From NCBI GenBank assembly GCA_965218885.1, contig OZ244713.1, forward strand, positions 240,601 through 304,600: a stretch of 64,000 bases of DNA. The letters are read 5' to 3'. The DNA is from a bacterium (GTDB taxonomy: Bacteria > UBA8248). Made by a program: the position numbers and the translations under genes. Shown piece after piece: positions 12,146 through 49,230 of the stretch (positions within the stretch are counted from its first letter, which is position 1; each line of letters begins with the position of its first letter). The notes below the pieces were generated by a model. That model saw only the letters and a program-made list of their open reading frames with translations, made no database searches and was not told where the DNA came from.

Positions 12146-12172
12146 TCGAACCCACACGAGAGGAGAAAATCC

Positions 12173-24808: not shown

Positions 24809-24825
24809 CGTTTTGATTACATATT
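24809..24825. repeat. 17-bp direct repeat, left copy (candidate attL), immediately upstream of integrase 1
   Basis: cgttttgattacatatt at 24809-24825 matches 49214-49230 exactly. Partial similarity continues for about 9 nt beyond. It is AT-rich in a GC-rich genome. Confidence 0.45.
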
Positions 24826-26013: not shown

Positions 26014-26014
26014 A

Positions 26015-27190
26015 GTGCAGATGAAGAAGCCCACAATGAAAACACTGTCGAACCGCGCGGTCGCGAAACTGAAAGTGGAGAAAGACACGGTCTTCTGGGA
26101 TCGCGACCTCACCGGCTTCGGCGTGAGGGTCTATCCCACCAGGAGCAAGGTGTATATCGCGCAAGCGCGGGGACCGGAGGGTCCCAGGCGCGTGGCGGTG
26201 GGCCGTCACGGGGTGATCAACGCCGATGAGGCGAGAAAGCGCGCCGCCCACATCATCGCGCGTATCAAGGCGGGCGAGGAGGCGGTTCCCGAACCGATGA
26301 AGCCGGCGGGAGGCCCCACTGTGGCCGAATTATGCGCGCGCTACCTCTCCGAATACGTCTCCGTGCGGTGCAAGCCGGGCACCGCCGCGCTCTACCGCTC
26401 GGTAATCAACCGCCACGTCCTGCCCGCCTTCGGGAAAATTCCGCTGGCGCGGCTCTCTCGCGCGCAGGTGGCGGAATTCCACCAGGGCCTCTACGAGACG
26501 CCCGCTGTCGCGAACATGGCGCTCCGCACCCTCTCCTCGATGTACGAACTCGCACGGGAGTGGGAACTGGTAGCAGACGGATTATCAAATCCCTGCCGCT
26601 CCATTATGAAATACCCCGAGCGCAGGCGCGAGCGGTTCCTGACGGATTCCGAGTTCATCCGCCTGGGAGAGGCCCTCGACGAAATGGAGACCCGGGGCGG
26701 TGCGTCCGCGTCCGCGGTGGCGGCGATCCGGCTCCTGGCGCTTACCGGGTGCCGTAGGAGCGAGGTCCTCAGGCTGCGCAAGGAGGACGTGGCGCTCGAA
26801 GCGGGCGAGTTGAGGCTGCCCGATTCCAAGACGGGCGCGCGGGCCGTCCCGTTGCCGCCGCAGGCGGTCGAGCTTCTCGCGAGTCTCCTGCGCGCCCACG
26901 GTGGTCCCTGGGTCATCCCGGGGAGGAAGCCGGGGACGCACCTCGGGAACATCGACGAGGCCTGGCGGGCGATAAGGGAGCGCGCGGGCCTCGAGGGCGT
27001 GCGGCTGCACGATCTGCGCCACTCCTGGGCCTCGCGGGCCCTTGCGCTCGGCGAGTCGCTCCCCGTGATCGGGAAGCTCCTGGGCCACAGCAAGATGGAA
27101 ACGACGGCGCGCTACGCGCACCTCGCGCGCGATTCGGCGCAGGAGGCGGCCGAGCGGGTCGCGGCGAGCATCGCGGAGGACATGCCGTAG
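26015..27190 (+). CDS. Tyrosine-type site-specific integrase, paralogue in tandem
   Basis: Same architecture as the first integrase (FWDRDLTGFGVRV...HDLRHSWASRA...LLGHSKMETTARYAHL). It starts 2 nt after the stop of integrase 1. Confidence 0.85.
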   Translation: MQMKKPTMKTLSNRAVAKLKVEKDTVFWDRDLTGFGVRVYPTRSKVYIAQARGPEGPRRVAVGRHGVINADEARKRAAHIIARIKAGEEAVPEPMKPAGGPTVAELCARYLSEYVSVRCKPGTAALYRSVINRHVLPAFGKIPLARLSRAQVAEFHQGLYETPAVANMALRTLSSMYELAREWELVADGLSNPCRSIMKYPERRRERFLTDSEFIRLGEALDEMETRGGASASAVAAIRLLALTGCRRSEVLRLRKEDVALEAGELRLPDSKTGARAVPLPPQAVELLASLLRAHGGPWVIPGRKPGTHLGNIDEAWRAIRERAGLEGVRLHDLRHSWASRALALGESLPVIGKLLGHSKMETTARYAHLARDSAQEAAERVAASIAEDMP

Positions 27191-36571: not shown

Positions 36572-36697
36572 ATGGTGCAGACGACACAAAAGAACATTCG
36601 CTTCACGCCGGAACAGTGGTAATGCGTCGAAAAAGAGGCGCTCGAGCGTAGGATAAGCCCGAATCGACTGGTGGTCAAGCTAGTGATGGAGACTTAA
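36572..36697 (+). pseudogene. CopG/RHH (ribbon-helix-helix)-like small ORF interrupted by an in-frame TAA
   Basis: It reads MVQTTQKNIRFTPEQW-(TAA at 36620-36622)-CVEKEALERRISPNRLVVKLVMET. The pattern of a beta-strand (IRFTPEQ) followed by two helices is RHH-like. AAAGGA lies upstream. Confidence 0.3.
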
Positions 36698-37392
36698 AGC
36701 GCCGGGAATAGCTGCTACCGGATGCACGGGAGAATCTCGCCTGGTGCGCTGGCTGGTCAGATTGCGTCATTCCTGATATGTGGTCATCCTTGGAGGGCCC
36801 CAAGTTCAGGCCAAGGCAATTCGTTGTAACCTTGACCACCTCCTGAAAGTCACAGTTTCTGATTCTACGCCATCACAAAATCCAAGAATATTTGAAATCC
36901 ACGGAGCAAAAATCCAAGAGTTTGATCTTTCCTTACAAGGATGATCACGTAAAGTTGGCAATCTTCCTCGTTCCATACTCCGAAGTCGACTGAAAAGTTG
37001 CTCAACATGTGAGGATTTGGATTGAAAATTCAAATTGCATTTGCTCCGAATGGTCACTCCGTTGTTGAAAAAACGAAAGGCGAGCGGAAAAGAGGTTCGT
37101 CAATTGTACATAAATGGATGAGACAACTTTTTGTGAATATTTCTCATGATTCCAAAATGAAGAATGTTTAGACACAGACAACTGCAGGCATAAGGAAGAA
37201 TCGAGCTACCTCTGAAACTGTAAAAAAGGAACTATCAGCTTTCTTCATTTCCACACTGTACCTTTGCTTCGTATTGACGTTCGTCGCCGGTTTCTCAACC
37301 AACCCACGCGCAGGGGTTTCAAAACAAAGCTTCAGCCAGCACATCCTTGACGAAGTGCGGCGTATCGCCAGCAAGAGGAGGGGACAGAGTAC

Positions 37393-37420
37393 TTGACAGT
37401 AGCCACATTTATACTACTAT
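37393..37420 (+). promoter_or_regulatory. Sigma70-like promoter candidate for the cargo module
   Basis: TTGACA (37393-37398), a 16-nt spacer and TACTAT (37415-37420) sit about 45 nt upstream of the ATG at 37467, in an AT-rich region. Confidence 0.4.
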
Positions 37421-37466
37421 AAATATAGAAATGCGACACATGGGACTCTTCCACGAGGTGCTCTGA

Positions 37467-39398
37467 ATGACTCTACTCAATCGTAGTGTATCATCCTGTT
37501 CTTTGGTGTGCGCCCTATCCCTTTATCTCATATTCGTGGTCGGCACCGGTTTCCAGCCCGCTCACGCGCAGGGTCTCCCGGACCTCGACGAGATACAAAA
37601 GATCATCGACGAGGCGCGGAGCATCGTCGCCAAGGCGAAGGAGTGCGTGGGGATAGCGGACGAAGCGGAAAGAAATGCGGGCTCGGCAGGCGATGAGAAA
37701 GACAAAGCGAAAAACAACGGGACGAAAGCATCAATGTACAGTATGACGGCGGTAGGCAAAGCAGAGATGGTCGCAACAGAAAAGATGAATGCGGAAACGG
37801 CGGCGAATCAGGCAGAGAAAGCGGCGAAGGATGCGGCAGCAGCAGCGCAAGCGGCGAAGGATGCGGCGGAGGATGCGGCAGACGACGTCGTCGAAACTTT
37901 CATCTCAGAAGCAATGGCCGAAACAGTCTGCATCCAAGGTATCAGCTGTAAGCCGACTTCTGGTGGTTACACAACGACTGAGCCAAGGAAGCCAACGGAT
38001 AAAGATATAGAAGAAGCGGAAAGAGCATTAGAAGATGCGAAAAAAGCCGTGTTGGAGGCGAATGCGGCTGCAACAAGAGCAGAGGATGCGGCGGGGGATG
38101 CGGCGGCGGCGGCGAAAGCGGCGAGAATGGCTGCTGAGAATGCAGCGATAGCAGGAGAGGCGGCGAGAAAGGCTGTTGAAGATGCCGCGGATGATGCAGA
38201 AGATGCGGCGGCGGCGGCGAAAAGGGCAGCGACAGCGGCGAGGGAAGCGGCAAGGTCGGCTGAAGAGGCTGCAGGCTACCTGGATAAACAGCGATATGCA
38301 TCTGTGGCAGGGTATGTAGATGCAGCGCGCAAGGCGGCGGATGCCGCAAAGGGAGAAGCGGATACAGCGAAAAAGGCGGCGGAAAATGCTGGAAAGTATG
38401 CCATGGATGCGGCGATGGCGGGAGATGTAGCCGGAGCGCGCGCGACGGATGCGGGAGAGGCGGCGGATAAGGCAAATGAAAGGGCAACAGCAGCGCGTAC
38501 ACACGCGGCGGCGGCGAGACGCTGCGCCGAGCATGTTTCCGAGAGGGAGGCGACGCTTGCATCGGCCCGTGCGGCCTCCGCCTATCTCTCGCGCACTGTG
38601 GTGAACCGGGTCCAGAAGCTGCGCCCCTCTGGCGGAAGCAGTTTCAGCAGGCCGGCGCGGACTTCGAGCAATTTGACCGGACTCAACGCAGGCGACAATA
38701 TGGTTCCTGATTATCCGGCGAATTTGGCGGTGGATGTCGGCTACAGCAAATCGAGCGGCGGGGAAGGCCTCTTCGAGACCCGTTCGAGTTACGTTCTCGT
38801 GATGACGGACACGTTGCTCACCCCGCAGCGTCTGATCGGCTTCGGCGTGGGCACGGAATACACCCGCGAGTCGTTGCTGGGAGGGACGCAAAGACGGACG
38901 CGCGGCCTCACGGCGACGGCCTATCTGGCGGAAATCCTCAATAAAAACTTTACTCTCGTGCCGCAGGCGGCGCTCACCTATCTGAACAAAAACAAGAAGT
39001 TCACTCCGACGCCGGAAGATGCTGAAAGAGGGATACGCACGCTTTTTTCACTGACCATGCTCGGGCAGAAACAATGGGGCAAGGTGGAATTAAGCGGTTT
39101 TGGCCAACTCGCTTATACACATGAAGGTGGTGGCGACTCCATCTACCTTGGACAGGCGATTGCAGGCGGGGAATTCGCGTTTGCGGTGAAAACCGATGCT
39201 CGTCTGTTTGTAGGCGCGTCGATGGGCTACGACTTGGTGCGAAGCGAATCTACTAGCGATCGGTTCAGTTATGACGGGAAGGTCGGTCTTCGTTCCCCGT
39301 TAGGCTCTAGAGCCGAGCTTAGCCTGTCGATATCCACCAGCAGGAAAGACGAAGAGGAAACGACGAGCGGCAACGTTTTCGTGAAGATTTTCTTCTAA
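37467..39398 (+). CDS. Autotransporter-like outer-membrane protein: signal peptide, Ala-rich alpha-helical passenger, C-terminal beta-barrel
   Basis: The signal peptide ends in the AHAQG cleavage region. About 330 aa of Ala/Glu/Lys-rich repeats follow (AAKDAAEDAADD..., AARKAVEDAADDAEDAAAAAKRAA). The C-terminal ~250 aa are rich in alternating hydrophobic residues and end in VFVKIFF. A terminal aromatic residue is typical of OM beta-barrels. Confidence 0.65.
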   Translation: MTLLNRSVSSCSLVCALSLYLIFVVGTGFQPAHAQGLPDLDEIQKIIDEARSIVAKAKECVGIADEAERNAGSAGDEKDKAKNNGTKASMYSMTAVGKAEMVATEKMNAETAANQAEKAAKDAAAAAQAAKDAAEDAADDVVETFISEAMAETVCIQGISCKPTSGGYTTTEPRKPTDKDIEEAERALEDAKKAVLEANAAATRAEDAAGDAAAAAKAARMAAENAAIAGEAARKAVEDAADDAEDAAAAAKRAATAAREAARSAEEAAGYLDKQRYASVAGYVDAARKAADAAKGEADTAKKAAENAGKYAMDAAMAGDVAGARATDAGEAADKANERATAARTHAAAARRCAEHVSEREATLASARAASAYLSRTVVNRVQKLRPSGGSSFSRPARTSSNLTGLNAGDNMVPDYPANLAVDVGYSKSSGGEGLFETRSSYVLVMTDTLLTPQRLIGFGVGTEYTRESLLGGTQRRTRGLTATAYLAEILNKNFTLVPQAALTYLNKNKKFTPTPEDAERGIRTLFSLTMLGQKQWGKVELSGFGQLAYTHEGGGDSIYLGQAIAGGEFAFAVKTDARLFVGASMGYDLVRSESTSDRFSYDGKVGLRSPLGSRAELSLSISTSRKDEEETTSGNVFVKIFF

Positions 39399-39462
39399 AA
39401 GAATCAGGGCCGAACTTAATCGGGAGAGCACGGCAATCGGGGAAAAGCTAAGGAGTTTAATC

Positions 39463-40836
39463 ATGAAAAACGTGACGATGAAGCGCAGCAAAACCGACCG
39501 CTCATCTCTTGGAAGTCGGATGTTTCTCGGAATCACCTTCGCTTTGTTGCTGGCCACGGTAACGGGGTGCGATCCAGAGGTCTTACAGGGAGCTCGAGAA
39601 GTTATGACTGCGGTGCAGGATGCTGCGTCGCGTGAGGTTGAGACCACGAGGATTCTGGAGGAGGAACGGAGGCGTAGTGAGGAGGAGCAGAGGCGTAAGG
39701 AGGCCCATGCGGCAGATATGGCCCGGAAGCAAACGCTTCAGGAGTTGATGGAGGATAAGTTAAAGGGTAAGGGGGGTAAGACGAAGGTGGACCCCCAGAA
39801 GGGGGAGGTGACGGTGCAGGGGAAGGATACGACACGAATCATCGGTCAACCTAAAGGACAGATGCCGAAGAAAACCGAGCGAGCTGGATGCGATCTGCGA
39901 CCGCTCAGAGCGGGCAGAAAATTTGTTGCCGAGGCTTGGGCGTTACCGGACAGCAAGTTCAATTTCGGCGAACCGCTCGCCTTTCAGATGCGGGTGAGTT
40001 CTCCCACCTATATGAGCGTCTTCCATGTAAGCACGTCTTGTAAGGTGATGCGCTTGCTGGACAACATGCCCGTGAAGGCGGCCGAGATCGTCGATTTTCC
40101 GTTGCGGGACAGTGGTATGAAGATAGTCGTGAGGCCGCCGGCGGGGATGGAAGCTTTCTATCTCATCGCTACCCGGAAAAAATTGGAGTTTCTGGCCAGT
40201 GCGGATATCCTGAGTACCGGAGGGAGTGGAATTGCGCGTCTCGACCTCAGCCCGAAGCAATTCTACCAGAGAGTGAAACAATTCCGCGACCGCATAAACC
40301 CGGACGATCTGAGCATGAGGACGCTCCTTATATCCAAGATGACAAGCGCGCCGAAGAAGACCAAGCGTGCCGGATGTAACCTGCGGCCGCTCAGAGCGAG
40401 CAGAAAATTTATTGCCGAGGCTTGGGCGGTACCGGATAACAAGTTCAATTTCGGTGAACCACTCACCATTCAGATGCGGGTGAGTTCTCCTACCTATATG
40501 AGCGTCTTCCATGTGAGCACGTCCTGCCAAGTGACGCGCTTGTTGGACAACAAGCCCGTGAAGGCGGCCGAGATTGTCGATTTTCCGTCGCGGGACAGCG
40601 GTATGAAGGTAATCGTGAAGCCGCCGGCGGGCAGGGAGGCTTTCTATCTCATCGCTACCCGGGAAAAATTGGAGTTTCTGGCCAACGCGGATATCCTGAA
40701 TAGCGGAGGGGGTGGAATCGCGCGCCTCTACCTCACCCCGGAGCAATTCTACCAGAGAGTGAAACAGTTCCGCGACCGCATAAACCCGGACGATCTGAGC
40801 ATCAGGTCACTCCGCATATCGATTATCGGCAATTGA
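39463..40836 (+). CDS. Lipoprotein with two tandem DUF4384-like domains
   Basis: The signal peptide plus lipobox LLLATVTGC marks a lipoprotein. Two 162-aa repeats begin at PKKTERAGCDLRPL and PKKTKRAGCNLRPL. Each has the DUF4384-type core YMSVFHVSTSC(K/Q)V(M/T)RLLDN. RBS AAGGAG lies upstream. Confidence 0.6.
   Translation: MKNVTMKRSKTDRSSLGSRMFLGITFALLLATVTGCDPEVLQGAREVMTAVQDAASREVETTRILEEERRRSEEEQRRKEAHAADMARKQTLQELMEDKLKGKGGKTKVDPQKGEVTVQGKDTTRIIGQPKGQMPKKTERAGCDLRPLRAGRKFVAEAWALPDSKFNFGEPLAFQMRVSSPTYMSVFHVSTSCKVMRLLDNMPVKAAEIVDFPLRDSGMKIVVRPPAGMEAFYLIATRKKLEFLASADILSTGGSGIARLDLSPKQFYQRVKQFRDRINPDDLSMRTLLISKMTSAPKKTKRAGCNLRPLRASRKFIAEAWAVPDNKFNFGEPLTIQMRVSSPTYMSVFHVSTSCQVTRLLDNKPVKAAEIVDFPSRDSGMKVIVKPPAGREAFYLIATREKLEFLANADILNSGGGGIARLYLTPEQFYQRVKQFRDRINPDDLSIRSLRISIIGN
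39865..40836 (+). repeat. Tandem direct repeat of ~486 bp (two units, 39865-40350 and 40351-40836) inside the lipoprotein gene
   Basis: The nucleotide and protein sequences of the two units are nearly identical (ccgaagaaaaccgagcgagctggatg... versus ccgaagaagaccaagcgtgccggatg...). Confidence 0.8.
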
Positions 40837-40943
40837 GTGAACACCCGGCGTACGAGTGAAGTTGGAAATGGACGAACTGGTTCCATGGAAATTGTTCGGA
40901 GGGCGATATCTTTCCACTCAAATCAGGATGGAGGAAAAGGACA

Positions 40944-41576
40944 ATGAAGATCACATCACGTTTCAGTTCCATTGGGGCCGTTGTCGTGGCCATCGTGGCT
41001 GTCGTAGCGCTCCAGGCTGCGGGGGTGGGCTCATACGATGCGTCGGCGGAGTCTTATATGAAGGATCTCGACATCCGTCAGATACCTATGGCGAAAATCC
41101 AGCCGGCAAAGCCGAGCGGAGCGAGCGCCGCTGCGGGTCTGGCCGTCAACGCCAGCGTAAACCGGGCAAACCGTAAGTATAAACATGGCGAGAACGTCGT
41201 GCTGACTGTCAAGGCCACGGAAGACGCCTATATCTGGGTGTTTGACACGGGAACCAGCGGCAAGGTGCATCAGATATTCCCCAACCGTTACGAGAAGAAT
41301 AATTTCGTGAAAGCCAAAGCGGCGCTTCGTATTCCCGGAAAGGGATCTAAGTATATGCTTACGGCTTCCCGTCCCAAGGGCGCGGAGTTGATCACGGTCA
41401 TCGCGTCGAAAACAAATGCCCCTTTGACCCCGACGATGATCGCCAAAGGTAACGGAAGCAGTCCGTTCCTGGCATTGAACGGTACGGCGCAATCGGTGGC
41501 GAAGGATTTGTCGATCACCTTGCGCAAAAAGCATCGTGTCTGGGCCAGGGCTCAGCAGGTTATTCTTATCGACTAG
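40944..41576 (+). CDS. Secreted DUF4384-domain protein
   Basis: The N-terminal signal/TM segment is FSSIGAVVVAIVAVVALQAAG. The DUF4384-type core is DAYIWVFDTGTSGKVHQIFPNRY. Confidence 0.6.
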   Translation: MKITSRFSSIGAVVVAIVAVVALQAAGVGSYDASAESYMKDLDIRQIPMAKIQPAKPSGASAAAGLAVNASVNRANRKYKHGENVVLTVKATEDAYIWVFDTGTSGKVHQIFPNRYEKNNFVKAKAALRIPGKGSKYMLTASRPKGAELITVIASKTNAPLTPTMIAKGNGSSPFLALNGTAQSVAKDLSITLRKKHRVWARAQQVILID

Positions 41577-41606
41577 ACATCGAATCGGTACCTGGAGGGA
41601 CGCATC

Positions 41607-43643
41607 ATGAGGCTCTTATCGCGTTTCCGATCGTTGTTTCCCGTATCCGCAGCTTCCCTTGGGGTGATGACCGTCGTTTGCCTGTATTGCATGGTTGTGC
41701 CGACACCGCTGGCAAACGGGGGGGAGATCGTCATGTCCGACGACATCATCCTTCAAATGAAGCCCAAGCCTCGTACGAGAGGGATCGCTTCGGAGTCTAC
41801 AAAGACAAGTCCGGGCAGAGTTATTCTTCCAGCCATCCAATTTGAGATCGATTCAGCCCGGTTCACGCGTACCGCCTTGGCGCAGGTGCGGGAACTGGGG
41901 AAAGCCCTCAAATCCGACGTTCTCAGAACGTTTATGTTTGCGGTGCAAGGCCACACGGACAGCACTGGGAGTAGCCCATACAATCGGGGTTTGTCCTTGC
42001 GGCGCGCCCGCGCGGTGACGCGCTACCTTAAGGGCGAAATGGGCGTGGTTGGAGGCCGGCTGATCGAAGTCGGGCTGGGAGAGAGCTTCCCGATCGACGG
42101 GATTCCGACGACGGACGCGAGAAACCGGCGTGTCGAAATAACAAAACTTGGAGACGGGGCGCCCGCCGAAGATGTAAGGCGTAACCGGAGGCGGGCGCTT
42201 CTCATCGGAATCGACAAATACGGGCACGTGTCTCCCTTGAAGGGCCCGGTGAACGACGCCAAGGACATGGCGAACTTCATTACAGGACGCGGAGGATTCA
42301 AGAGCAGTGATGTCCGGCTTCTGCTGGATGCAGAGGCGACAAAGAAAAATATTCTCGCTACAGTCAAGAAATGGCTGGTCGACGGAACAAATGCCGGAGA
42401 TGAGGTGTTCCTGTTCTACAGTGGCCACGGTTTTCAACAACCCGACTTGGACGGAGACGAAAAAGACGGCCTGGATGAAACACTGGTCCCGGTCGATGCA
42501 TTTGTGGATGAGGACGGCAAGATAAAAGGAATGATTACGGACGACGAACTCGGAGTGCTTTTGGGTCGTCTGTCCGATCGCCGCGTGCGTGTAGTGGTAG
42601 ATGCCTGCCATTCAGGCACGAGTGCCAGAAGCGCGGGAGGCTCGGAAAGTTGGAAATACGTCAAGACGCCTCGCCTGCCGGATGGTTCACCGATTCGAAT
42701 CGCCCGTACGCGTGGCCTGGGGGGCAAGGAAGAGTCTCGGCAGGAATCCCTTTTGGTGTCGAACGATCCCGATTTCGCCATCTGGACGGCCGTCAGGTCA
42801 GACCAGAAAGCCCTGGTTGACAGAGAAGTCATGGGTCGTTCAGGCGGTGGAAGTGTGTACACGAGACGTCTGCTCTGGGGAGCGCGCGATGGAAAGGCTG
42901 ATGAGAACCGCGACGGCATCGTGACGATGGAGGAACTCTACCGTTATGTGCTCAAAGAATCCGAGGAGTATTGCAAGCGATATTCCGATGATTGCCGCCT
43001 CGGCTTGACGCCGCAAGTTCAGGTGGCGTCGGGCCGGCTCGAGATTCCCGCGTTTGGAAATGCGTACGCGAGTTTGCCGCGAAACGCCACTCTTGCAAAA
43101 GATATTTTAGTACGTCCGTCGAGTCGACCGGCATCAAGAGGGAAAAGCGGCGTCCGGTTGCGAATCGACCCGGGCTCGAATCTCGTGCTCGGGGCCAATC
43201 TGGATATCATCGTCGAAAGTGACCGCAAGGGATATCTTGTATTACTGGATATAAATGCAGCTGGAGAATTGGTTCAGATATTTCCCAATGAAGGGAGCTT
43301 ACGTAGCGGTGTTTCCTCCTTGATACGTCCAAGCGAGCCTGTACGGCTACCAGGAGAGAAAGCCGGGTTTCGCTTTCGAGCAACCCCGCCAGCTGGTTCT
43401 GGCCTCCTTGTCGCCGTTGTGACCCAAAAGAATGATCGGGTTTGGGAGTTGGCTTCGCGGCATAAAGATCTGAGTGTGGTGCCGTCTCCGGCGGCCTATC
43501 TCGTTGAGATTGGAGAAGCCCTCCGTGCTGGTTCTTCAGTACCCAATAATGCCCGTGGTTCTGGTTGGAGTGTTGCGACGCTACAATACAAAATCGCTTT
43601 ACCCGATTCGGGCCGAAATAAGTCATCAAATGATGCGAGATGA
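41607..43643 (+). CDS. Multidomain envelope protein: N-terminal TM, OmpA-like peptidoglycan-binding domain, caspase-like peptidase C14 domain, C-terminal DUF4384
   Basis: The OmpA_C-like block is HTDSTGSSPYNRGLSLRRARAV. The caspase His-Cys dyad lies in FLFYSGHGF...RVVVDACHSGT. The DUF4384 core is GYLVLLDINAAGELVQIFPNEG. RBS GGAGGGA lies upstream. Confidence 0.75.
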   Translation: MRLLSRFRSLFPVSAASLGVMTVVCLYCMVVPTPLANGGEIVMSDDIILQMKPKPRTRGIASESTKTSPGRVILPAIQFEIDSARFTRTALAQVRELGKALKSDVLRTFMFAVQGHTDSTGSSPYNRGLSLRRARAVTRYLKGEMGVVGGRLIEVGLGESFPIDGIPTTDARNRRVEITKLGDGAPAEDVRRNRRRALLIGIDKYGHVSPLKGPVNDAKDMANFITGRGGFKSSDVRLLLDAEATKKNILATVKKWLVDGTNAGDEVFLFYSGHGFQQPDLDGDEKDGLDETLVPVDAFVDEDGKIKGMITDDELGVLLGRLSDRRVRVVVDACHSGTSARSAGGSESWKYVKTPRLPDGSPIRIARTRGLGGKEESRQESLLVSNDPDFAIWTAVRSDQKALVDREVMGRSGGGSVYTRRLLWGARDGKADENRDGIVTMEELYRYVLKESEEYCKRYSDDCRLGLTPQVQVASGRLEIPAFGNAYASLPRNATLAKDILVRPSSRPASRGKSGVRLRIDPGSNLVLGANLDIIVESDRKGYLVLLDINAAGELVQIFPNEGSLRSGVSSLIRPSEPVRLPGEKAGFRFRATPPAGSGLLVAVVTQKNDRVWELASRHKDLSVVPSPAAYLVEIGEALRAGSSVPNNARGSGWSVATLQYKIALPDSGRNKSSNDAR

Positions 43644-43950
43644 CATGAAATTTCAAAAAGCAGCCGTTGAATGTCGCTCCTCCTTCACCGTGCTCGTTGG
43701 AATTTTCTGTTTTTTGGTCATAGTTCAATACATTCCCTTGGTTGCGTATGCCGAGGGGTCGGGTGAAATGAGAGATTCCATCCGGAAACTCACAGAACCG
43801 GTTATCAGATCCGTTCGCTCCGCTACTCGACCTACCCATAAGACTACCCATGACGACGCTGGTCTTGTCAAAGACACGCCTGAGGATGATTCTCGAAAAA
43901 AAGGTGTTTCGTCCACTTCGGATAGAAATCAATCTTCTGACGCCCAATGA
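43629..43950 (+). CDS. Small secreted protein duplicating the N-terminal leader motif of the WD40-caspase
   Basis: MMRDDMKFQKAAVECRSSFTVLVGIFCFLVIVQYIPLVAYAEGSGEMRDSIRKLTEPVIRSVRSATRPT... aligns with the N-terminus of the downstream protein (ADAQGFGRLRHSIRNLTRPVIRSVRTVIRPL...TRDEAGPV). Its start overlaps the stop of the upstream caspase gene. Confidence 0.5.
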
Positions 43951-43951
43951 T

Positions 43952-46396
43952 ATGAAGCGCCAAATAACAGCTGATAGGCATTGCTCCTGTTCCATGGCGG
44001 TCATTGGGCTATTTTGTCTCTGGGTTGTGACGGCATGCATTCCACCTGCTGCGGACGCCCAGGGATTTGGTAGATTGAGGCATTCCATTCGAAACCTCAC
44101 ACGCCCGGTCATCAGATCGGTTCGCACCGTCATTCGTCCCCTCCTCAATATCACCCGCGACGAAGCCGGCCCGGTCACGGAGCTACATACGGATAATGCC
44201 CGGAGTTTTCTGTTCACCGTGCTTGGAGATGGAAGCGCCAGGTTGTGGGACCTTCGGCGTGGAGTGCAATTGGGTGGGGCTTTTGGAAGTGAACTCGCTT
44301 CAGGCGCCATCCGTGGAGAGGGGAACGCCTTGGAAGCCATAGCCGTCAGCAGAGACGGCTCGTCGATCTCCATACGTCCAGACGGCTCGGTCCAGCAGAT
44401 TGGCGAGAAGATTGAAGGAATCGACCCAGTAGTCATACCCGTTCTGTCGGGGAATGGGAATGTCGTAGCGTATCGTAGTGAGGTTGACGGCGGCTGGTAT
44501 GTGAAGCGGGATGGTTCCGATCAGGCCGAACGGCTACCTGGTGCCGATCCTGATAGCCGACCTATCCTCTCCTCGGATGGAGTGAAGGTCGCTTACCGAA
44601 CAGTCCGGGGGACGATTGCCGTGAAAGGCGCGCTTCGCGGTGGGACGGCAGAAATCGAAGGTTGCGAGAGCGAAATTCCGGTAACAGCGGGAGCCTATAC
44701 ACCTGATGGCGAGCGAGTGATATTAGGGGATGAAGAAGGCAACATTTGCGTTTGGCGCATCCCCGAACATGAAGTTCCGAGGCGGATTTTCGTGCAAGAG
44801 GCAGCTCATTCCGGCTCGATTCGACTCCTCGTGCTTGACCAGGATGGAATCCATGTCTCTACAAGTGGAGAAGATGCGGCGGTAAACATCTGGGTCGTGA
44901 CGTCTGAAATTCGCCCAGTGGCTTCGCTGAAGCTGGCCATAGAGTCCGCAACTTCGCTTTTGATGGACGTTAGCAGAAGGTGGGTTTTCGTCGGAGAATC
45001 GAGAGGAACGGTTGGAATCTATTCGTTCAATGAACTGGCGCGCATCGCGCGCTTGATTTCCACGGATGTCGGATGGGCAGTTCTTGACCGAAAAGGCCGA
45101 TTCGATGGACCTCAAAATGGTGTCGATGCGCTGGTATGGGCAGGTGAGACAGCGGCGCAAACTCTCCCGGTCGATGCGTTCTCCGAAAGCTATTTCGAGC
45201 CTGGACTGATGGGGAAACTTGGTGGCAAACCGCAACCTTTCCTGAACGAAGACGTTCGCGATCTCTCTGAAGACGGCTACATTGCGCCGCCGAGTGTCTC
45301 GATCGATCCGATTGACAGTCTTCAGGTCGATGCCGAAGGGCGTTCAAGGGTCAATATCCGGTTGGCCCCGAACTATCCAAGGCGGGACGTGCTCGAAATC
45401 AGGCTATATCACAATGGAAAACTCGTTCCTGCCGAGAAGATGGTCTCCGATCCTACTGGCAAGATCATCGAATATGCGATTCGACTCCTACCGGGAGAAA
45501 ACACCTTCAAAGCGATCGGGATCGGTCCGGGAGGGGTCGAAGGCCAACCGGCGTTAGTGACGGTGGCGGTTACCGAACCTGAACTGCGTCGGCCCAGGAT
45601 GCAGGTAGTCGCCATCGGTATCGGCGATTACGTTAGGCCTGACTGGAAGCTCGAATCCACTCGTAACGACGCAAATGCCGTCGTCTCGGCGCTGCGTAAC
45701 CGGAGTGGCAACTTGTACAGTGACGTGGACGTGGTTTCATTGTTAGATTCTCACGCCAAGGCGACCATGATTGAAAATCACATTTCCGGAAAATCGCAAT
45801 CGCCCCAGGATGTTCTGGTGGTCTTTTTTGCGGGTCACGGCTATGCGTTGCAGGAGAAGGGGAATAAGGGTAGCTGGGAATGGTATCTTCTCCCGTACAC
45901 GCATGCTTGGAACACGAGGACAGAGGGAAAAATCGAGATGATACGACGGTATGGGATTCCCAGTCGTCGCTTGATGCGTTTGCTGACGAAAACCCAGGCG
46001 CAGCGCGTATTCCTCATCCTCGATTCGTGCCGCTCCGGCGCGGTTGTTGACGCCGTTTCCTCCTCCACGGGAAGGGCGCTCGACGATGCCGTCGGACAAA
46101 AAACTTTGCGCAGAATCGCGCGTGTGGGCGGCATTCACATCCTGGCGGCTTCGCGAGCGGATGAGGATGCAATCGAACTGCTCTCCGTGCCACACGGCGC
46201 TCTGACCTATCTGATCCTCGAGGGTATCCGGGGGGCGGCGGATGAAAATCTAAACGGGAAGATTTCTGTTGGTGAGATCATTAGATATGCGACGAGGGAG
46301 ATGCCCCTTCTCTCCCAGCGGCTTGTCAAAGAGACTATCAGCCAGAAGCCCGTCGGCTATTCACGCGGGGCGGACTTCGCGCTCGCCGGATTGTAA
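43952..46396 (+). CDS. Secreted WD40-repeat (beta-propeller) protein with C-terminal caspase-like peptidase C14 domain
   Basis: The signal peptide is MKRQITADRHCSCSMAVIGLFCLWVVTACIPPAADAQG. WD-like repeats include GDGSARLWDL, EEGNICVWRIPE and AAVNIWVV. The C-terminal caspase His-Cys dyad lies in VVFFAGHGY...VFLILDSCRSGAV. Confidence 0.75.
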   Translation: MKRQITADRHCSCSMAVIGLFCLWVVTACIPPAADAQGFGRLRHSIRNLTRPVIRSVRTVIRPLLNITRDEAGPVTELHTDNARSFLFTVLGDGSARLWDLRRGVQLGGAFGSELASGAIRGEGNALEAIAVSRDGSSISIRPDGSVQQIGEKIEGIDPVVIPVLSGNGNVVAYRSEVDGGWYVKRDGSDQAERLPGADPDSRPILSSDGVKVAYRTVRGTIAVKGALRGGTAEIEGCESEIPVTAGAYTPDGERVILGDEEGNICVWRIPEHEVPRRIFVQEAAHSGSIRLLVLDQDGIHVSTSGEDAAVNIWVVTSEIRPVASLKLAIESATSLLMDVSRRWVFVGESRGTVGIYSFNELARIARLISTDVGWAVLDRKGRFDGPQNGVDALVWAGETAAQTLPVDAFSESYFEPGLMGKLGGKPQPFLNEDVRDLSEDGYIAPPSVSIDPIDSLQVDAEGRSRVNIRLAPNYPRRDVLEIRLYHNGKLVPAEKMVSDPTGKIIEYAIRLLPGENTFKAIGIGPGGVEGQPALVTVAVTEPELRRPRMQVVAIGIGDYVRPDWKLESTRNDANAVVSALRNRSGNLYSDVDVVSLLDSHAKATMIENHISGKSQSPQDVLVVFFAGHGYALQEKGNKGSWEWYLLPYTHAWNTRTEGKIEMIRRYGIPSRRLMRLLTKTQAQRVFLILDSCRSGAVVDAVSSSTGRALDDAVGQKTLRRIARVGGIHILAASRADEDAIELLSVPHGALTYLILEGIRGAADENLNGKISVGEIIRYATREMPLLSQRLVKETISQKPVGYSRGADFALAGL

Positions 46397-46404
46397 ATCA
46401 AGAG

Positions 46405-47334
46405 GTGGCGCTGCGCCCTGCACCGGATACTAGTTATGTGGACAAGAGACGTTACTCTCAAGTGTTCTTCGTTGTTCTTGCATGCATGATGATTGGTTGC
46501 ACAGCGTTGGGGTATAAGGGCGCATCTGGAATCTGTCCGCTTCCGGCATGTTCGGATTGGAAATATCGACGCTTTATACACAACGGAATTCCGGTAATCG
46601 GTTTCCAGAAACCGGGTCGTCGCCTAGGCCGCATGGTCGTCTATATCGAGGGGGACGGAAATGCGTGGAGTAGTCGCTCGCGGGTTTCGAGTGACCCCAC
46701 CCCGGATGATCCGGTCGCTCTCCGTTTGGGGTTGCGTGATCCGGACCCTGGCGTTCTTTATTTGGCGCGGCCCTGCCAATATGTCGGCAGGAAGTTCATC
46801 GCCAGTTGTAATCCTTCACTCTGGACAGCTGCGCGATATTCACTGGAGGTTATCGAAGCGATAGATCGCGCAATCACGTCTTCAAAGCTGTCTGCCGAAG
46901 ATCGTCTCACACTCGTCGGATATTCCGGTGGAGGTGTCATCGCGACGCTCTTGGCGTCGCGCCGTCTGGATGTGGATGAATTGGTCACGGTCGCTGCGCC
47001 TTTAGACATCGCCGCCTGGACAAACCACCACCGGGTCTCACCTCTCAAAGATTCCCTCAATCCGTCCGAGCGCGTGCCCGCCTACGGTAAGGCGCGTGAA
47101 TTTCACTTCCATGGCGGACGGGACCTGGTGGTGCCTCCCGTGGTTGTTGAGCAGTATCGCCGACAAGCGTCACGAGCAAACGTCCATTTTTTCACTGTTT
47201 CCGAGTTCGAGCATCAATGTTGCTGGGTGCGCGACTGGCCAAAGTTCTTGTCGATGATTCGAGAACGCAGAATGCATTCAAAGGTGTGTGTAACCCCTAA
47301 AATGGGAGAAGTTTCACGTTCTTCAGAACGTTAA
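46405..47334 (+). CDS. Alpha/beta-hydrolase lipoprotein (GxSxG nucleophile elbow)
   Basis: The hydrophobic leader ends in VVLACMMIGC, a lipobox-like sequence. The GYSGGG motif is followed by a region with conserved D and H. The likely start is the GTG at 46438. Confidence 0.6.
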   Translation: MALRPAPDTSYVDKRRYSQVFFVVLACMMIGCTALGYKGASGICPLPACSDWKYRRFIHNGIPVIGFQKPGRRLGRMVVYIEGDGNAWSSRSRVSSDPTPDDPVALRLGLRDPDPGVLYLARPCQYVGRKFIASCNPSLWTAARYSLEVIEAIDRAITSSKLSAEDRLTLVGYSGGGVIATLLASRRLDVDELVTVAAPLDIAAWTNHHRVSPLKDSLNPSERVPAYGKAREFHFHGGRDLVVPPVVVEQYRRQASRANVHFFTVSEFEHQCCWVRDWPKFLSMIRERRMHSKVCVTPKMGEVSRSSER

Positions 47335-47465
47335 TGCTGCTAGATATTTGAACTTCTGCTGCTGGTGGCTTGGTCCAAGTGATTTTAATTTTCTTTTACC
47401 GGAATATTGAGATCTGACTCGCTCGGCAGACCAAAGACTGTTAGCGAAACGACTAGGAGGACACC

Positions 47466-48527
47466 ATGAAAACGAAATCCTTAACTGCAATGCTATCGGC
47501 TTCTTTGCTATTCATGCTCATGCCGGAATACATACACGCTGATGAGAAACTCTCCATTAAGGCCTACAGGCACCGAGGATGCATTCTTCCTCCTACTAAT
47601 ATAAACCGTCTGGCAAGAAATTCGCACATAGGTCTTGAGATGGAGTTTTCATATCCAAAAGACCCTAAAAACACTAAACAGATTGACACTGCAATTCTAT
47701 CTTGTATGGGAGACGTTGAGGAGAAGCGATTGAGTTGTAATGATGCGGTTGAGTTGCCATGGTCGGCCCTGGAAGAACTAAATTCTTTGGAACCCTTTGC
47801 GGGAGCAAAATGTGAGGACCAGTTCAAGAGTGAGGTCCGTAAGTGTTTGGACTACTACGAACAGAAGACATCGAAATGTCACGCTTTAGGACGTGGGGTT
47901 CCTTTGTCGAAGGGGGCATCCTTGTGGGAAGAGTTGATACCAGACGATAGTCCTAGTGGCAACTATGAAGAACTGCCACCAAGTGACGACCACCTCTATA
48001 AAACCCGGAAAGACCAGAAAGGAGGCCCAGCGGACAATTGGAAAAAATGGGTAGAGGGGAACCTGCCAGGGAATAAAATGGGAGATATGGGGATAGATAG
48101 AAAAGGGGGAGATATGCCCTCCTCGGGCTATTCTGGAGCAAAATTCCGAGATCCGAACCCCACGGGCAAATCTGGAGTAGACTTGAAAGACCTGATTCGG
48201 CTAGAGGAGCGAGAAATGCTCGAAGAGGAGAAAAAGGAGTATGGGACCCTAGGTTCTCCGGGTGGTCCAATAAACCCTGGAGGTGCAATGAATAAGAAGA
48301 GGAACGATGCTTGTGAGCGAGCTAAACGTAGAGCTGCGCAGACAATACCCCGCATCACTCCGAGCAGATCAATGTGCACAACCTATCGAACTGCTTTACG
48401 TATGTACGAAAGTGTAAGACGGATCCTGAGCAGTAACGGCTGCCCCGCGCACGAGGTAAGGCAATACGATCAGGCGATTGCGCAAACAAAGCTCGGAGTG
48501 CGCGCGGTCTGTGCGGATATTCGCTAA
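47466..48527 (+). CDS. Secreted cysteine-rich hypothetical protein, lower GC than surroundings
   Basis: The signal peptide is MKTKSLTAMLSASLLFMLMPEYIHA. The protein has about 14 Cys, a Gly/Pro/Lys-rich central region, and no recognisable domain. Confidence 0.5.
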   Translation: MKTKSLTAMLSASLLFMLMPEYIHADEKLSIKAYRHRGCILPPTNINRLARNSHIGLEMEFSYPKDPKNTKQIDTAILSCMGDVEEKRLSCNDAVELPWSALEELNSLEPFAGAKCEDQFKSEVRKCLDYYEQKTSKCHALGRGVPLSKGASLWEELIPDDSPSGNYEELPPSDDHLYKTRKDQKGGPADNWKKWVEGNLPGNKMGDMGIDRKGGDMPSSGYSGAKFRDPNPTGKSGVDLKDLIRLEEREMLEEEKKEYGTLGSPGGPINPGGAMNKKRNDACERAKRRAAQTIPRITPSRSMCTTYRTALRMYESVRRILSSNGCPAHEVRQYDQAIAQTKLGVRAVCADIR

Positions 48528-49213: not shown

Positions 49214-49230
49214 CGTTTTGATTACATATT
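49214..49230. repeat. 17-bp direct repeat, right copy (candidate attR)
   Basis: cgttttgattacatatt is identical to 24809-24825. It lies in an AT-rich non-coding stretch just before the MMPL gene. Confidence 0.45.

What the first reader, a model, noticed from the sequence alone, without database searches (positions are those of the whole stretch)
37393..48527. Mobile-element cargo encoding an all-exported caspase (C14) / DUF4384 / WD40 / OmpA module
Eight consecutive same-strand genes all carry signal peptides or lipoboxes. They are:
- an Ala-rich autotransporter-like outer-membrane protein
- a lipoprotein with duplicated DUF4384
- a secreted DUF4384 protein
- an OmpA-caspase-DUF4384 fusion
- a leader-motif peptide
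- a WD40-caspase
- an alpha/beta-hydrolase lipoprotein
- a Cys-rich secreted protein

Caspase-like proteases with WD40 sensor-like repeats, a peptidoglycan anchor and repeated DUF4384 modules, all targeted to the envelope, look like a coordinated periplasmic proteolytic or cell-fate system. The candidates are regulated envelope remodelling, programmed death or abortive infection, or an anti-competitor function. To my knowledge this combination has not been characterised as a system. It is carried as cargo on an integrative element.
Basis: partly seen in the sequence, partly recalled or inferred. Interest (0 to 1): 0.85.

Follow-up and report, generated by a model that had tools for sequence, protein, structure and literature searches.

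The report
Exported two-caspase envelope gene cassette
This is a real, horizontally spreading gene cassette, so far found almost only in uncultured bacteria, that places two caspase-type proteases, their partner proteins and an outer-membrane surface protein in the cell envelope rather than the cytoplasm; nobody has yet studied what it does.

Summary
Window 37467-48527 (+) carries nine co-directional, closely spaced genes. All have N-terminal export signals. Pfam confirms 2xDUF4384 (g2), DUF4384 (g3), OmpA+Peptidase_C14+DUF4384 (g4) and beta-propeller+Peptidase_C14 (g5). Both peptidases keep the His/Cys dyad.

The arrangement is not chance. The order DUF4384-lipoprotein / DUF4384 / OmpA-C14-DUF4384 / WD40-C14, next to an outer-membrane beta-barrel protein, recurs in 12 of 12 orthologous loci. 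These come from Gamma- and Alphaproteobacteria and Ca. Binatia, at 47-96% identity, usually beside mobile-element genes.

- g4 is metacaspase-like, with an acidic S1 pocket, an acidic Ca-type loop and an EF-hand-type loop.
- A motif R-T-R-G-[ILV] is unique to the module within the window. It sits in two disordered g4 segments.
- DUF4384 models as an Ig/macroglobulin-like sandwich.

My best reading, at moderate confidence, is a peptidoglycan-tethered, Arg-specific zymogen pair. It would process co-encoded envelope and surface proteins. The cassette has no NTPase and no inner-membrane-spanning component.

No known defence family matches, and I found no paper on this cassette. "Cargo of an integrative element" is only partly supported. 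Function is untested. I class it as a new variant of prokaryotic caspase systems.

The parts
37393..37420 (+). Promoter-like site (TTGACA-16-TACTAT), 47 nt upstream of g1
   Evidence: It matches 10 of 12 consensus positions. The number of such sites in the region is no more than chance, so this is only a positional hint.
37467..39398 (+). g1: exported outer-membrane protein, 643 aa. It has an Ala-rich (31% Ala) repetitive N-terminal half and a C-terminal beta-barrel-like domain of about 290 aa ending in VKIFF. It carries one RTRG motif at nt 38895-38906.
   Evidence: The barrel family is tiny, with 20 relatives among 1.84e9 representatives. The passenger is not alignable even to the locus that is 96% identical in g4. 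Other loci carry PF03797 autotransporters at the equivalent position.
39463..40836 (+). g2: lipoprotein (lipobox VTGC) with two DUF4384 domains. These arose from a 486-nt tandem duplication (39864-40163 / 40350-40649, 88% identical).
   Evidence: Most orthologues carry one copy.
40944..41576 (+). g3: secreted DUF4384 protein, 210 aa. An invariant YLKDLDIRQ motif lies in a predicted disordered N-terminus, and an SVAKDLSITLR helix follows the sandwich.
41607..43643 (+). g4: signal peptide, a short conserved N-terminal helix, an OmpA-like peptidoglycan-binding domain, a metacaspase-like C14 domain and a DUF4384 domain.
- Catalytic residues: His274 (nt 42426-42428) and Cys334 (nt 42606-42608).
- Acidic loop: nt 42444-42479.
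- EF-hand-type loop: nt 42900-42935.
- RTRG motifs: nt 41772-41783 and 42705-42716.
43645..43950 (+). g4b: small exported protein of about 101 aa whose mature N-terminus copies that of g5 (MRDSIRKLTEPVIRSVRS)
   Evidence: It is an intact ORF in L001 and L002 only, so it is a lineage-specific partial duplicate of the g5 5' end.
43952..46396 (+). g5: signal peptide (possible lipobox VTAC), an Arg-rich N-terminal segment (nt 44069-44140), a WD40-type beta-propeller, an Ig-like spacer and a C14 peptidase.
- His motif AGHG: nt 45830-45841.
- Cys motif DSCRSG: nt 46022-46039.
- EF-hand-type loop: nt 46241-46276.
   Evidence: The ORF is open from 43850. The start at 43952 is inferred from the signal peptide and from the stop codon of g4b.
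46405..47334 (+). g6: lipoprotein alpha/beta-hydrolase with a conserved Ser-Asp-His triad. It is an accessory gene that co-occurs with the g1-type barrel.
47466..48527 (+). g7: secreted protein, 353 aa with 10 Cys and no known family. It diverges fast: 45% and 30% identity in loci where g4 is 95% and 81% identical.
24809..24825 (+). Left copy of the exact 17-bp direct repeat CGTTTTGATTACATATT, 12 nt upstream of the first integrase gene
   Evidence: Expected by chance: 0.01.
49214..49230 (+). Right copy of the 17-bp direct repeat, 0.7 kb downstream of g7. It is a candidate att core.
   Evidence: Identity to L001 drops at this point.
24838..27190 (+). Two tandem tyrosine integrase genes (24838-26013 and 26015-27190)
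   Evidence: Each has Phage_integrase, Arm-DNA-bind_3 and SAM-like domains.
27814..30612 (-). Helicase with AAA_30 and UvrD_C_2 domains. Its C-terminal 400 aa resemble MobF relaxases.

Best explanation
The module is a self-contained, horizontally mobile envelope proteolysis cassette.

Shown:
- g4 has the sequence features of a peptidoglycan-tethered, metacaspase-type protease (OmpA-like domain).
- g5 is a second caspase-family protease fused to a WD40 propeller.
- They are always encoded with two DUF4384 proteins (one a lipoprotein, one soluble) and an outer-membrane beta-barrel protein whose exposed half is hypervariable.
- All products carry export signals. The cassette has no NTPase and no inner-membrane-spanning component.

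Inferred mechanism:
- Both proteases are made as periplasmic zymogens that cut after Arg/Lys and are Ca2+-loaded.
- g4 is activated by cleavage at the conserved R-T-R|G sites. One follows a short N-terminal propeptide helix. The other lies in the disordered loop after the catalytic Cys.
- g5 is a downstream protease whose Arg-rich N-terminal segment is a substrate or latch.
- In this lineage g4b is a decoy copy of that segment.
- The Ig/macroglobulin-like DUF4384 domains, with their flanking KDL helices or motifs, act as adaptors or substrates. Some may be docked by the propeller.
- The output stays in the envelope. It would be processing or release of the co-encoded surface and secreted proteins (the barrel protein, g7) and of envelope tethers. 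That means regulated surface remodelling rather than a cytoplasmic response.
For: - Domain content and intact dyads. g4 H274, C334, D217 and D332 are invariant or nearly so in 86 sequences. The g5 AGHG and DSCxSG motifs are conserved in 8 orthologues.
- Closest solved relatives are type I and II metacaspases: Yca1 E=1.6e-30 by profile, and GSU0716 plus metacaspases by Foldseek.
- The loop D280-x3-D284-E285-x-D287-x2-D290-E291 aligns with the acidic loop of Yca1.
- Canonical 12-residue EF-hand-type loops occur in both peptidases.
- The OmpA-like peptidoglycan-contact residues (D118, R133 in GHTDS...LSxRRA) are invariant.
- RTRG[ILV] occurs only three times in all ORFs of the 64-kb window, and all three are in the module. 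The two g4 sites lie in segments with pLDDT <50 and are conserved across the family.
- Strict synteny of the core holds in 12 of 12 loci. Two unrelated barrel families are used interchangeably, which argues for functional coupling to 'a surface barrel protein' as such.
- In Azospirillum the OmpA, DUF4384 and caspase parts are separate neighbouring genes. In Rhizobium, DUF4384-caspase genes sit with a trypsin fusion, a serpin and a kinase. Both fit DUF4384 plus caspase working as extracytoplasmic proteolytic partners.
- DUF4384 also forms the C-terminal domain of some Csx30 proteins. Csx30 is the substrate of the caspase-like Csx29 (bioRxiv 10.1101/2022.08.17.504292).
- A LuxR-type regulator lies upstream in 3 loci, with a distant relative in the Rhizobium cluster.
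Against: - Nothing here shows protease activity, cleavage at RTRG, Ca2+ dependence, or which protein is the substrate.
- The RTRG motif is degenerate or absent in some orthologues (L005, L007, L008), and it is absent from the PF03797-type barrels.
- The g3 model is only moderately confident (pLDDT 66).
- Export was judged with a hydropathy and lipobox heuristic, not a trained predictor.
- Whether g5 or the proteases reach the cell surface is unknown.
Confidence: 0.4

Rival explanations
1. Envelope-level suicide or anti-phage defence. A surface or periplasmic insult, such as phage adsorption or outer-membrane breach, activates the caspases. They then destroy envelope tethers or proteins and kill the cell, or shed its outer membrane, before the invader spreads.
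For: - Caspase-family effectors are common in prokaryotic conflict systems, some with OmpA or PEGA cell-wall-binding domains (PMC7159879).
- The cassette is patchy across lineages, low in GC relative to its host, and sits beside integrases, transposases, relaxases, HEPN/HepT, PIN and a weak DruA hit in several loci.
- The surface-exposed part is hypervariable, as expected for a molecule in an arms race.
- Generic PADLOC 'caspase' hits were found.
Against: - No PADLOC system-specific match.
- No NTPase or STAND sensor, and no component that could sense events in the cytoplasm.
- Defence-type neighbours are inconsistent. L003, L004 and L006 have mostly metabolic or housekeeping flanks.
- The cassette was not found on IMG/VR viral contigs.
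Confidence: 0.2
2. Host- or neighbour-directed factor of symbionts. The variable barrel-protein passenger and the secreted g7 act on a host (for example sponge cells) or on competitors. The periplasmic proteases only mature them, or are themselves delivered outside.
For: - The named genomes carrying orthologues are MAGs. One is Candidatus Spongiihabitans, a name that occurs in sponge-microbiome papers.
- L009 comes from an isolate labelled COS1_bin_8. That label resembles sponge MAG naming, but this rests on my memory and the check did not confirm it.
- Identity of 50-60% across Gamma- and Alphaproteobacteria and Binatia suggests exchange within a shared habitat.
- The g1 passenger and g7 evolve far faster than the core.
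Against: - Habitat of most hits is unknown, since they are ENA assemblies without metadata here.
- g4 carries a peptidoglycan anchor, which argues that it stays in the periplasm.
- g7 exists only in the window's own clade (3 loci).
- No secretion system beyond the barrel protein is encoded.
Confidence: 0.15
3. Sortase-like attachment machine. The clan CD peptidases act as transpeptidases, as PorU does in type IX secretion. They would cleave a signal from the surface protein and link it covalently to an envelope polymer. The propeller, the OmpA-like domain and the sandwich domains would play scaffold roles like PorZ and PorE.
For: - The domain inventory parallels the T9SS attachment and anchoring proteins: a clan CD peptidase, a beta-propeller, an OmpA_C-like peptidoglycan binder, beta-sandwich domains and outer-membrane barrels. 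This comparison comes from my knowledge of PorU, PorZ, PorV, PorQ and PorE.
- The link to a surface barrel protein is obligatory.
Against: - There is no sequence relationship to PorU (family C25) beyond clan level. The peptidases are closest to hydrolytic metacaspases.
- No T9SS C-terminal sorting domain is evident in g1 or g7.
- The hosts are Proteobacteria and Binatia, not Bacteroidota.
Confidence: 0.1
4. Chance juxtaposition of unrelated exported genes on a mobile element, with no common function.
For: - The module sits in a compositionally foreign, mosaic region.
- g6, g7 and g4b are not universal.
Against: - The core order is conserved in 12 of 12 loci down to 47% identity and across phyla.
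- The fused and split versions of OmpA/caspase/DUF4384 form a Rosetta-stone link.
- A motif is shared between g1 and g4.
Confidence: 0.02

Closest known systems
Type I metacaspases (yeast Yca1/Mca1, PDB 4F6O; T. brucei MCA2) and bacterial C14 proteins such as GSU0716 (PDB 3BIJ)
   Same: - The g4 C14 domain shares the caspase-hemoglobinase fold.
- It has the SGHG His, the DxCHSG Cys and the Asp residues that make an acidic S1 pocket.
- It has the acidic DxDGDExDxxDE loop and a candidate N-terminal propeptide.
   Different: - g4 is exported.
- It is fused N-terminally to an OmpA-like peptidoglycan anchor and C-terminally to DUF4384.
- It is encoded with a second, WD40-fused caspase in a fixed operon.
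- Its activity and Ca2+ dependence are untested.
Cyanobacterial and other prokaryotic orthocaspases or metacaspases with accessory domains (surveys: PMC3501461, PMC7475262, PMC5756287)
   Same: - They belong to Peptidase_C14 and carry WD40 or DUF4384 accessory domains.
- The surveys already noted N-terminal helices that may be signal peptides, and OmpA in 14 metacaspase operons.
   Different: - Those surveys did not define this cassette.
- Most described architectures are cytoplasmic, with NACHT, AAA or TPR domains.
- Here every component is extracytoplasmic and the gene order is fixed.
MALT1 paracaspase (caspase-Ig3)
   Same: A caspase-like domain is followed directly by an Ig-like sandwich. 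MALT1 caspase-Ig3 structures align over more than 450 columns with the g4 model.
   Different: - There is no sequence relationship beyond the fold.
- MALT1 is cytoplasmic and eukaryotic, and is activated by scaffold-driven dimerisation.
Type III-E CRISPR 'Craspase' (Csx29 protease with its substrate Csx30)
   Same: A caspase-like protease is paired with a partner protein whose C-terminal domain can be DUF4384.
   Different: - Craspase is cytoplasmic and RNA-guided.
- It uses a CHAT-type protease and signals through a sigma factor.
- None of those parts is present here.
NTP-dependent conflict systems with caspase or trypsin effectors and OmpA or PEGA cell-wall domains (Kaur et al. 2020, PMC7159879)
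   Same: - Caspase-family effectors occur with cell-wall-binding domains.
- They have a patchy, mobile distribution.
- The related Azospirillum locus has tubulin-like and PEGA genes.
   Different: The window's cassette has no vWA-MoxR, STAND, GAP1 or other NTPase, and no transmembrane sensor.
Thioester-protein macroglobulin (MG) domains, including bacterial periplasmic alpha-2-macroglobulin
   Same: - MG proteins are substrates or traps of proteases.
   Different: - There is no thioester domain and no bait region.
- Sequence identity is 9-15%.
- The fold is a common sandwich, and many unrelated Ig/fn3 domains score nearly as well.

Membership tests
Peptidase family C14 (caspase/metacaspase), g4 | Profile match above the curated threshold, plus the catalytic His (in xSGHG) and Cys (in DxCHSG) | tested here: met
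   - Pfam PF00656: 88.6 bits against a cut-off of 21.4.
- H274 is invariant and C334 is >=90% conserved in 86 sequences.
- Foldseek matches metacaspases at prob 1.00.
Peptidase family C14, g5 | Profile match above threshold, plus the His/Cys dyad | tested here: met
   PF00656 scores 34.6 bits against a cut-off of 21.4. The AGHG and DSCxSG motifs are conserved in 8 orthologues.
Metacaspase-type specificity and regulation (Arg/Lys at P1, Ca2+ activation) | Acidic S1 pocket residues and an acidic Ca2+-binding loop, with biochemical preference for basic P1 | tested here: inconclusive
   - The sequence features are present. D217, D332 and the D280...E291 loop align to Yca1.
- EF-hand-type loops are present.
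- Activity and specificity are not testable with these tools.
OmpA_C-like peptidoglycan-binding domain (g4 residues about 79-174) | Profile match and conserved peptidoglycan-contact residues (the TD...N..LS..RA motif) | tested here: met
   - PF00691: 55.3 bits against a cut-off of 27.2.
- G115, T117, D118, N126, L129, S130 and R133 are invariant.
- Structural matches to OprF and Pal domains have TM 0.7-0.8 normalised to the target.
DUF4384 (PF14326) | Profile match above threshold | tested here: met
   g2 scores 79.5 bits (two stretches), g3 82.9 bits and g4 51.3 bits, against a cut-off of 27.
WD40 beta-propeller (g5 residues about 60-400) | Repeated WD40 blades recognised by propeller profiles | tested here: inconclusive
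   - Thirteen families match in all. Twelve are WD40 or propeller models, the best at E about 1e-8, and all are below their family-specific cut-offs.
- PF00400 scores 26.5 bits against a cut-off of 27.
- The same families are reported for orthologues.
- No structure was predicted for g5.
Classical (type Va) autotransporter, g1 | C-terminal PF03797 beta-domain preceded by a passenger, with a terminal aromatic residue | tested here: not met
   - g1 has no Pfam hit.
- PF03797 is sub-threshold in 3 of 14 family members, with best E 9e-4.
- hhalign to the PF03797 barrels of other loci gives probability <1%.
- The terminal ...VKIFF and the positional equivalence to PF03797 proteins in L003, L005, L006 and L008 support 'works like' only.
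Alpha/beta-hydrolase, g6 | Nucleophile elbow GxSxG plus Asp and His, with a profile match | tested here: inconclusive
   All profile hits are below their cut-offs. GYSGGG, HGGRD and HxCCW are conserved in the four full-length orthologues; the fifth, L025, is truncated.
Known anti-phage defence systems (PADLOC-DB 2.0) | Match to system-specific models | tested here: not met
   Only a generic 'caspase' model and ZorB (through the OmpA-like domain) match.
NTP-dependent caspase conflict systems (vWA-MoxR/VMAP, iSTAND, GAP1) | Presence of the NTPase core (MoxR, STAND or GAP1) and vWA partners | tested here: not met
   No such domains occur in any of the nine module proteins or in the orthologous clusters.
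Integrative (mobilisable) element carrying the module | Integrase, flanking direct repeats, foreign composition, and an empty site in a relative | tested here: inconclusive
   - Two integrases and a MobF-like helicase are present.
- An exact 17-bp repeat brackets 24809-49230.
- The module's GC differs from the backbone's.
- A third repeat copy lies by an IS110 gene.
- No empty site was found.

The most novel reading that the evidence does not exclude
The cassette is a true extracytoplasmic caspase cascade. A peptidoglycan-tethered initiator metacaspase, activated at R-T-R|G sites, would switch on a propeller-bearing executioner caspase in the periplasm. Ig/macroglobulin-like DUF4384 proteins would serve as dedicated adaptors or substrates. 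The result would be an envelope-level cell-fate or surface-switching decision that needs no cytoplasmic component. The cassette would be traded between phyla among co-resident, possibly sponge-associated, bacteria.
Probability: 0.25. Interest if true: 0.85.

Novelty: new variant of a known kind. Interest (0 to 1): 0.62.

Why it matters
Prokaryotic caspase homologues are numerous, but few have a known role, and the studied ones act in the cytoplasm.

This cassette is compact and strongly conserved. Two intact caspase-family proteases, their likely partners and a surface protein are all exported together. That makes it a tractable test of three questions:
- Do caspase-type proteolytic cascades operate in the bacterial envelope?
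- What does the widespread DUF4384 domain do next to proteases?
- How is such a module spread between unrelated bacteria?

The candidate cleavage motif (RTR|G), the decoy-like small protein and the two interchangeable barrel types give concrete, falsifiable handles.

Tried and rejected
- Exact look-up of g4 in the contig collection found nothing on record. The source genome could not be identified.
- I tried to show that the g1 barrel is homologous to the PF03797 autotransporters of other loci. hhalign gave probability <1% with both 5- and 14-sequence profiles. The PDB profile search gave no hit. Pfam was only sub-threshold. The 'autotransporter' label is therefore kept as positional analogy only.
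- PADLOC and NCBIfam gave no system-level assignment.
- The IMG/VR scan for g4 relatives found none, so the cassette is not evidently phage-borne.
- A plasmid search found no true orthologue. It found only split or otherwise fused relatives in Azospirillum and Rhizobium. The Vibrio hits are OmpA domains only.
- Rfam and tRNA scans of the window found nothing, so there is no tRNA integration site.
- Small ORFs in 35.9-37.4 kb and in the element backbone have no Pfam family. The LuxR regulator seen upstream in L001, L002 and L008 is absent from the window.
- Cluster look-up for organism names gave little, so the sponge association remains a lead.
- The afdb50 fold library was unavailable.
- I considered whether the KDL motifs flanking DUF4384 are cleavage sites. 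The downstream Arg is not conserved in g4, and the motifs are modelled as helices. I treat them as structural or docking elements instead.

Full report
**What is in the sequence**

Between 37467 and 48527 the + strand carries nine ORFs separated by 8-131 nt:
- g1 37467-39398
- g2 39463-40836
- g3 40944-41576
- g4 41607-43643
- a small g4b 43645-43950
- g5 (ORF open from 43850, probable start 43952) ending at 46396
- g6 46405-47334
- g7 47466-48527

Third-position GC is 0.48-0.68 in these genes and 0.8-0.9 in the flanking housekeeping genes. Window GC drops from 0.65-0.70 to 0.49-0.58 over 36-49 kb.

- g2 has DUF4384 twice.
- g3 has DUF4384.
- g4 has OmpA, Peptidase_C14 and DUF4384.
- g5 has a WD40-type propeller and Peptidase_C14.
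- g6 gives only sub-threshold alpha/beta-hydrolase matches. Its GYSGGG Ser, HGGRD Asp and HxCCW His are conserved in orthologues.
- g1 and g7 have no family.

A hydropathy and lipobox check shows an N-terminal signal-like segment in all nine proteins. Only expected exceptions among 21 control proteins of the window show one. g2 and g6 have lipoboxes, and g5 possibly does.

The 'leader-motif peptide' is real. g4b is an intact ORF in the two closest loci. It repeats the signal peptide and the 'IRxLTxPVIRSVR' N-terminus of g5.

**It is a conserved module, not a chance neighbourhood**

g4 has more than 120 cluster representatives with the same three-domain architecture at 49% identity or more. I examined twelve orthologous loci:
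- L001-L003 and L025-L027 come from assemblies.
- L004-L009 come from species-representative genomes: Candidatus Spongiihabitans, three Alphaproteobacteria MAG contigs, Ca. Binatia and a Gammaproteobacteria MAG.

In all twelve the order is DUF4384-lipoprotein, DUF4384, OmpA-C14-DUF4384, WD40-C14.

Eleven of the twelve also encode a large exported protein with a C-terminal outer-membrane barrel, either upstream of g2 or between g4 and g5. L007 has an 860-aa protein in that position, but no barrel domain was recognised in it. Two unrelated barrel types are used:
- A g1-type barrel. This family is tiny, with 20 relatives among 1.84 billion representatives. In every locus that extends far enough downstream it comes with the g6 hydrolase.
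- PF03797 autotransporters, which come without g6.

The N-terminal 'passenger' halves are unalignable even between loci whose g4 is 96% identical. g7 is also far more diverged than the core.

A 388-aa LuxR-type regulator lies upstream in L001, L002 and L008 but is absent from the window.

**The two proteases**

For g4:
- His274 (SGHG) is invariant and Cys334 (DACHSG) is at least 90% conserved in an 86-sequence alignment. D217 and D332 are invariant. They correspond to S1-pocket Asp residues of Arg/Lys-specific metacaspases. That correspondence rests on the published metacaspase structures as I recall them.
- A profile of the family hits yeast metacaspase Yca1 at E=1.6e-30. The alignment covers the acidic DxDGDExDxxDE loop.
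- The AlphaFold model (mean pLDDT 79) matches GSU0716, plant and fungal metacaspases, and MALT1 caspase-Ig3.
- The OmpA-like domain keeps the peptidoglycan-contact residues.

For g5, the AGHG and DSCxSG motifs are conserved in eight orthologues.

Both peptidases carry a canonical 12-residue EF-hand-type loop at the same place (DENRDGIVTMEE in g4, DENLNGKISVGE in g5). An invariant Cys pair in g4 and conserved Cys pairs in g6 fit an oxidising compartment.

**A module-specific motif**

R-T-R-G-[ILV] occurs three times among all ORFs of 90 codons or more on both strands of the 64-kb window. All three are in the module:
- g4 residues 56-60, between a short confidently modelled helix and the OmpA-like domain
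- g4 residues 367-371, in the disordered loop that follows the catalytic Cys
- g1 residue 477

In the g4 family, position 58 is R/K in 84 of 86 sequences, position 59 is G/A in 81 of 86, and position 60 is I/V in 84 of 86. The linker copy is conserved in most.

The peptidase is predicted to cut after Arg. Metacaspases are typically activated by removing an N-terminal prodomain or by cutting the inter-subunit linker. I therefore read these as candidate processing sites. This is inference. Some orthologues have degenerate motifs.

The mature N-terminus of g5 is Arg-rich in all orthologues, and g4b mimics it.

**DUF4384**

Each DUF4384 in g3 and g4 is flanked by conserved K-D-[LI] elements. In g3 these are YLKDLDIRQ and SVAKDLSITLR. 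In g4 they are AKDILV and HKDLSV. The N-terminal element of g3 is invariant yet modelled as disordered, as a docking motif would be.

The only functional hint I found in the literature is that DUF4384 is 'often fused to proteases' and forms the C-terminal domain of some Csx30 proteins. Csx30 is the substrate of the caspase-like Csx29.

**Relatives in cultured bacteria**

An Azospirillum plasmid encodes OmpA, DUF4384 and caspase proteins as separate adjacent genes, near tubulin-like and PEGA genes. Rhizobium leguminosarum plasmids encode DUF4384 - caspase - trypsin::caspase::DUF4384 - serpin - Ser/Thr kinase, with a distantly related LuxR gene nearby.

These loci support a general functional link between DUF4384, caspase domains and cell-wall anchors. 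They are different systems from the cassette here.

**Mobile context**

Directly after pyruvate carboxylase (20876-24340) lie these genes:
- two tandem tyrosine integrases
- a helicase whose C-terminal 400 aa resemble MobF relaxases
- SSB
- DUF4326
- a YspA/SLOG protein

The module follows them.

An exact 17-mer (CGTTTTGATTACATATT) occurs at 24809 and 49214, where 0.01 is expected by chance. Identity to L001 drops at the right copy. This fits att sites.

Three facts weaken the picture:
- A third copy, with one mismatch, lies about 300 nt upstream of an IS110 transposase at 62.9 kb. It shares about 100 nt with the 49.2-kb copy.
- The module's composition differs from the integrase and helicase backbone.
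- In L001 the module lies near an inverted fragment of the same pyc 3' end, without that backbone.

Other loci are flanked by VapE, a TrwC relaxase, phage tail genes, IS66/IS110/IS4-type transposases, HEPN/HepT or PIN. The cassette is clearly mobile. 'Cargo of this integrative element' is plausible but not proven.

**Interpretation**

Every product is exported. There is no NTPase and no inner-membrane-spanning component, so any output must occur in the envelope. The invariant link to a surface barrel protein of either type argues that the conserved core serves, or is served by, a surface-exposed protein.

My preferred model (confidence 0.4) is a peptidoglycan-tethered, Arg-specific, Ca2+-loaded zymogen pair with these features:
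- Processing at RTR|G would activate it.
- DUF4384 proteins would act as adaptors or substrates.
- It would remodel co-encoded surface and secreted proteins.

The rivals are:
- envelope-level suicide or defence (0.2)
- a symbiosis or competition factor (0.15)
- a PorU-like attachment machine (0.1)
- chance (0.02)

No known defence family matches. In the library I could search, the literature holds only bioinformatic surveys. They mention exported metacaspases and OmpA in metacaspase operons.

**Verdict**

The finding is real and the cassette is uncharacterised. It is built from known domain families, so I class it as a new variant of prokaryotic caspase systems. The function remains a hypothesis. 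Interest is moderate to high.

Noticed in passing
window 38895-38906, 41772-41783, 42705-42716: The motif R-T-R-G-[ILV] occurs only three times in all ORFs of 90 codons or more in the window, and all three are in module proteins (once in g1, twice in g4). The two g4 copies lie in low-confidence (disordered) segments and are conserved in the family. They are candidate Arg-specific processing sites.
   Followed up: partly
window 24809-24825, 49214-49230, 62869-62885 (-): There are three copies of a 17-mer. The third has one mismatch and lies about 300 nt upstream of an IS110-family transposase gene (61404-62573, -). The 49.2-kb and 62.9-kb copies share about 100 nt to the left of the core, so this may be a recombination hot spot or target rather than a simple att pair.
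   Followed up: partly
L001-L009, L025-L027 (module loci): The cassette uses two mutually exclusive outer-membrane barrel types. A small private family (g1-type) is accompanied by the g6 hydrolase in every locus that extends far enough downstream. PF03797 autotransporters come without g6. Passenger regions are hypervariable (Ala-rich coiled coil, fn3_6, He_PIG or Big-like).
   Followed up: partly
window 39864-40163 and 40350-40649: A recent 486-nt tandem duplication (88% identical) inside g2 doubles its DUF4384 domain. L002 has it too, but most orthologues have a single copy.
   Followed up: yes
L001 4150-5316, L002 4496-5665, L008 147-1013; absent from window 35916-37467: A 388-aa LuxR/GerE-type regulator lies upstream of the cassette in three loci. 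It is 67% identical in L008, where g4 is only 47% identical. A distant relative lies next to the Rhizobium DUF4384-caspase cluster. The window instead has 1.5 kb of low-GC sequence without a recognisable gene.
   Followed up: partly
L001 2422-2973 vs window 23877-24428: The close relative L001 carries an inverted 552-bp copy (96% identical) of the 3' end of pyruvate carboxylase, about 1.2 kb from its LuxR genes and cassette. This suggests recurrent insertion or rearrangement at the pyc-proximal site.
   Followed up: no
L023 (Azospirillum sp. TSA2s plasmid p2, 8199-23817): There are several clusters of separate OmpA, DUF4384 and caspase genes next to a tubulin-like protein and a PEGA-domain protein. 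This is possibly one of the cell-wall-associated conflict systems described by Kaur et al. 2020.
   Followed up: no
L024 (Rhizobium leguminosarum pRL9b5, 3239-13011): A conserved plasmid cluster encodes DUF4384 protein - caspase - trypsin::caspase::DUF4384 - serpin - Ser/Thr kinase. It looks like a protease cascade with its own inhibitor and is present on many Rhizobium plasmids.
   Followed up: no
window 42900-42935 (g4) and 46241-46276 (g5): Both caspase-family domains carry a canonical 12-residue EF-hand-type loop (DxNxDGxIxxxE) at the equivalent position in the C-terminal part of the domain.
   Followed up: partly
window 24838-27190: Two tandem paralogous tyrosine integrase genes lie head to tail. 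A 220-nt stretch is 71% identical between them, and they are separated by one base.
   Followed up: no
window 59877-60539 and 61404-62573: A truncated Mutator-family (IS256-like) transposase fragment and an IS110-family transposase lie near the window's right end. The region downstream of the module is also a mosaic.
   Followed up: no
L004, L009 and other MAG loci: The named genomes with orthologues are uncultured. One is Candidatus Spongiihabitans, a sponge-microbiome taxon, and another has a sponge-style MAG name. Identity of about 50-60% across Gamma- and Alphaproteobacteria and Binatia suggests exchange within a shared, possibly sponge-associated, habitat.
   Followed up: partly
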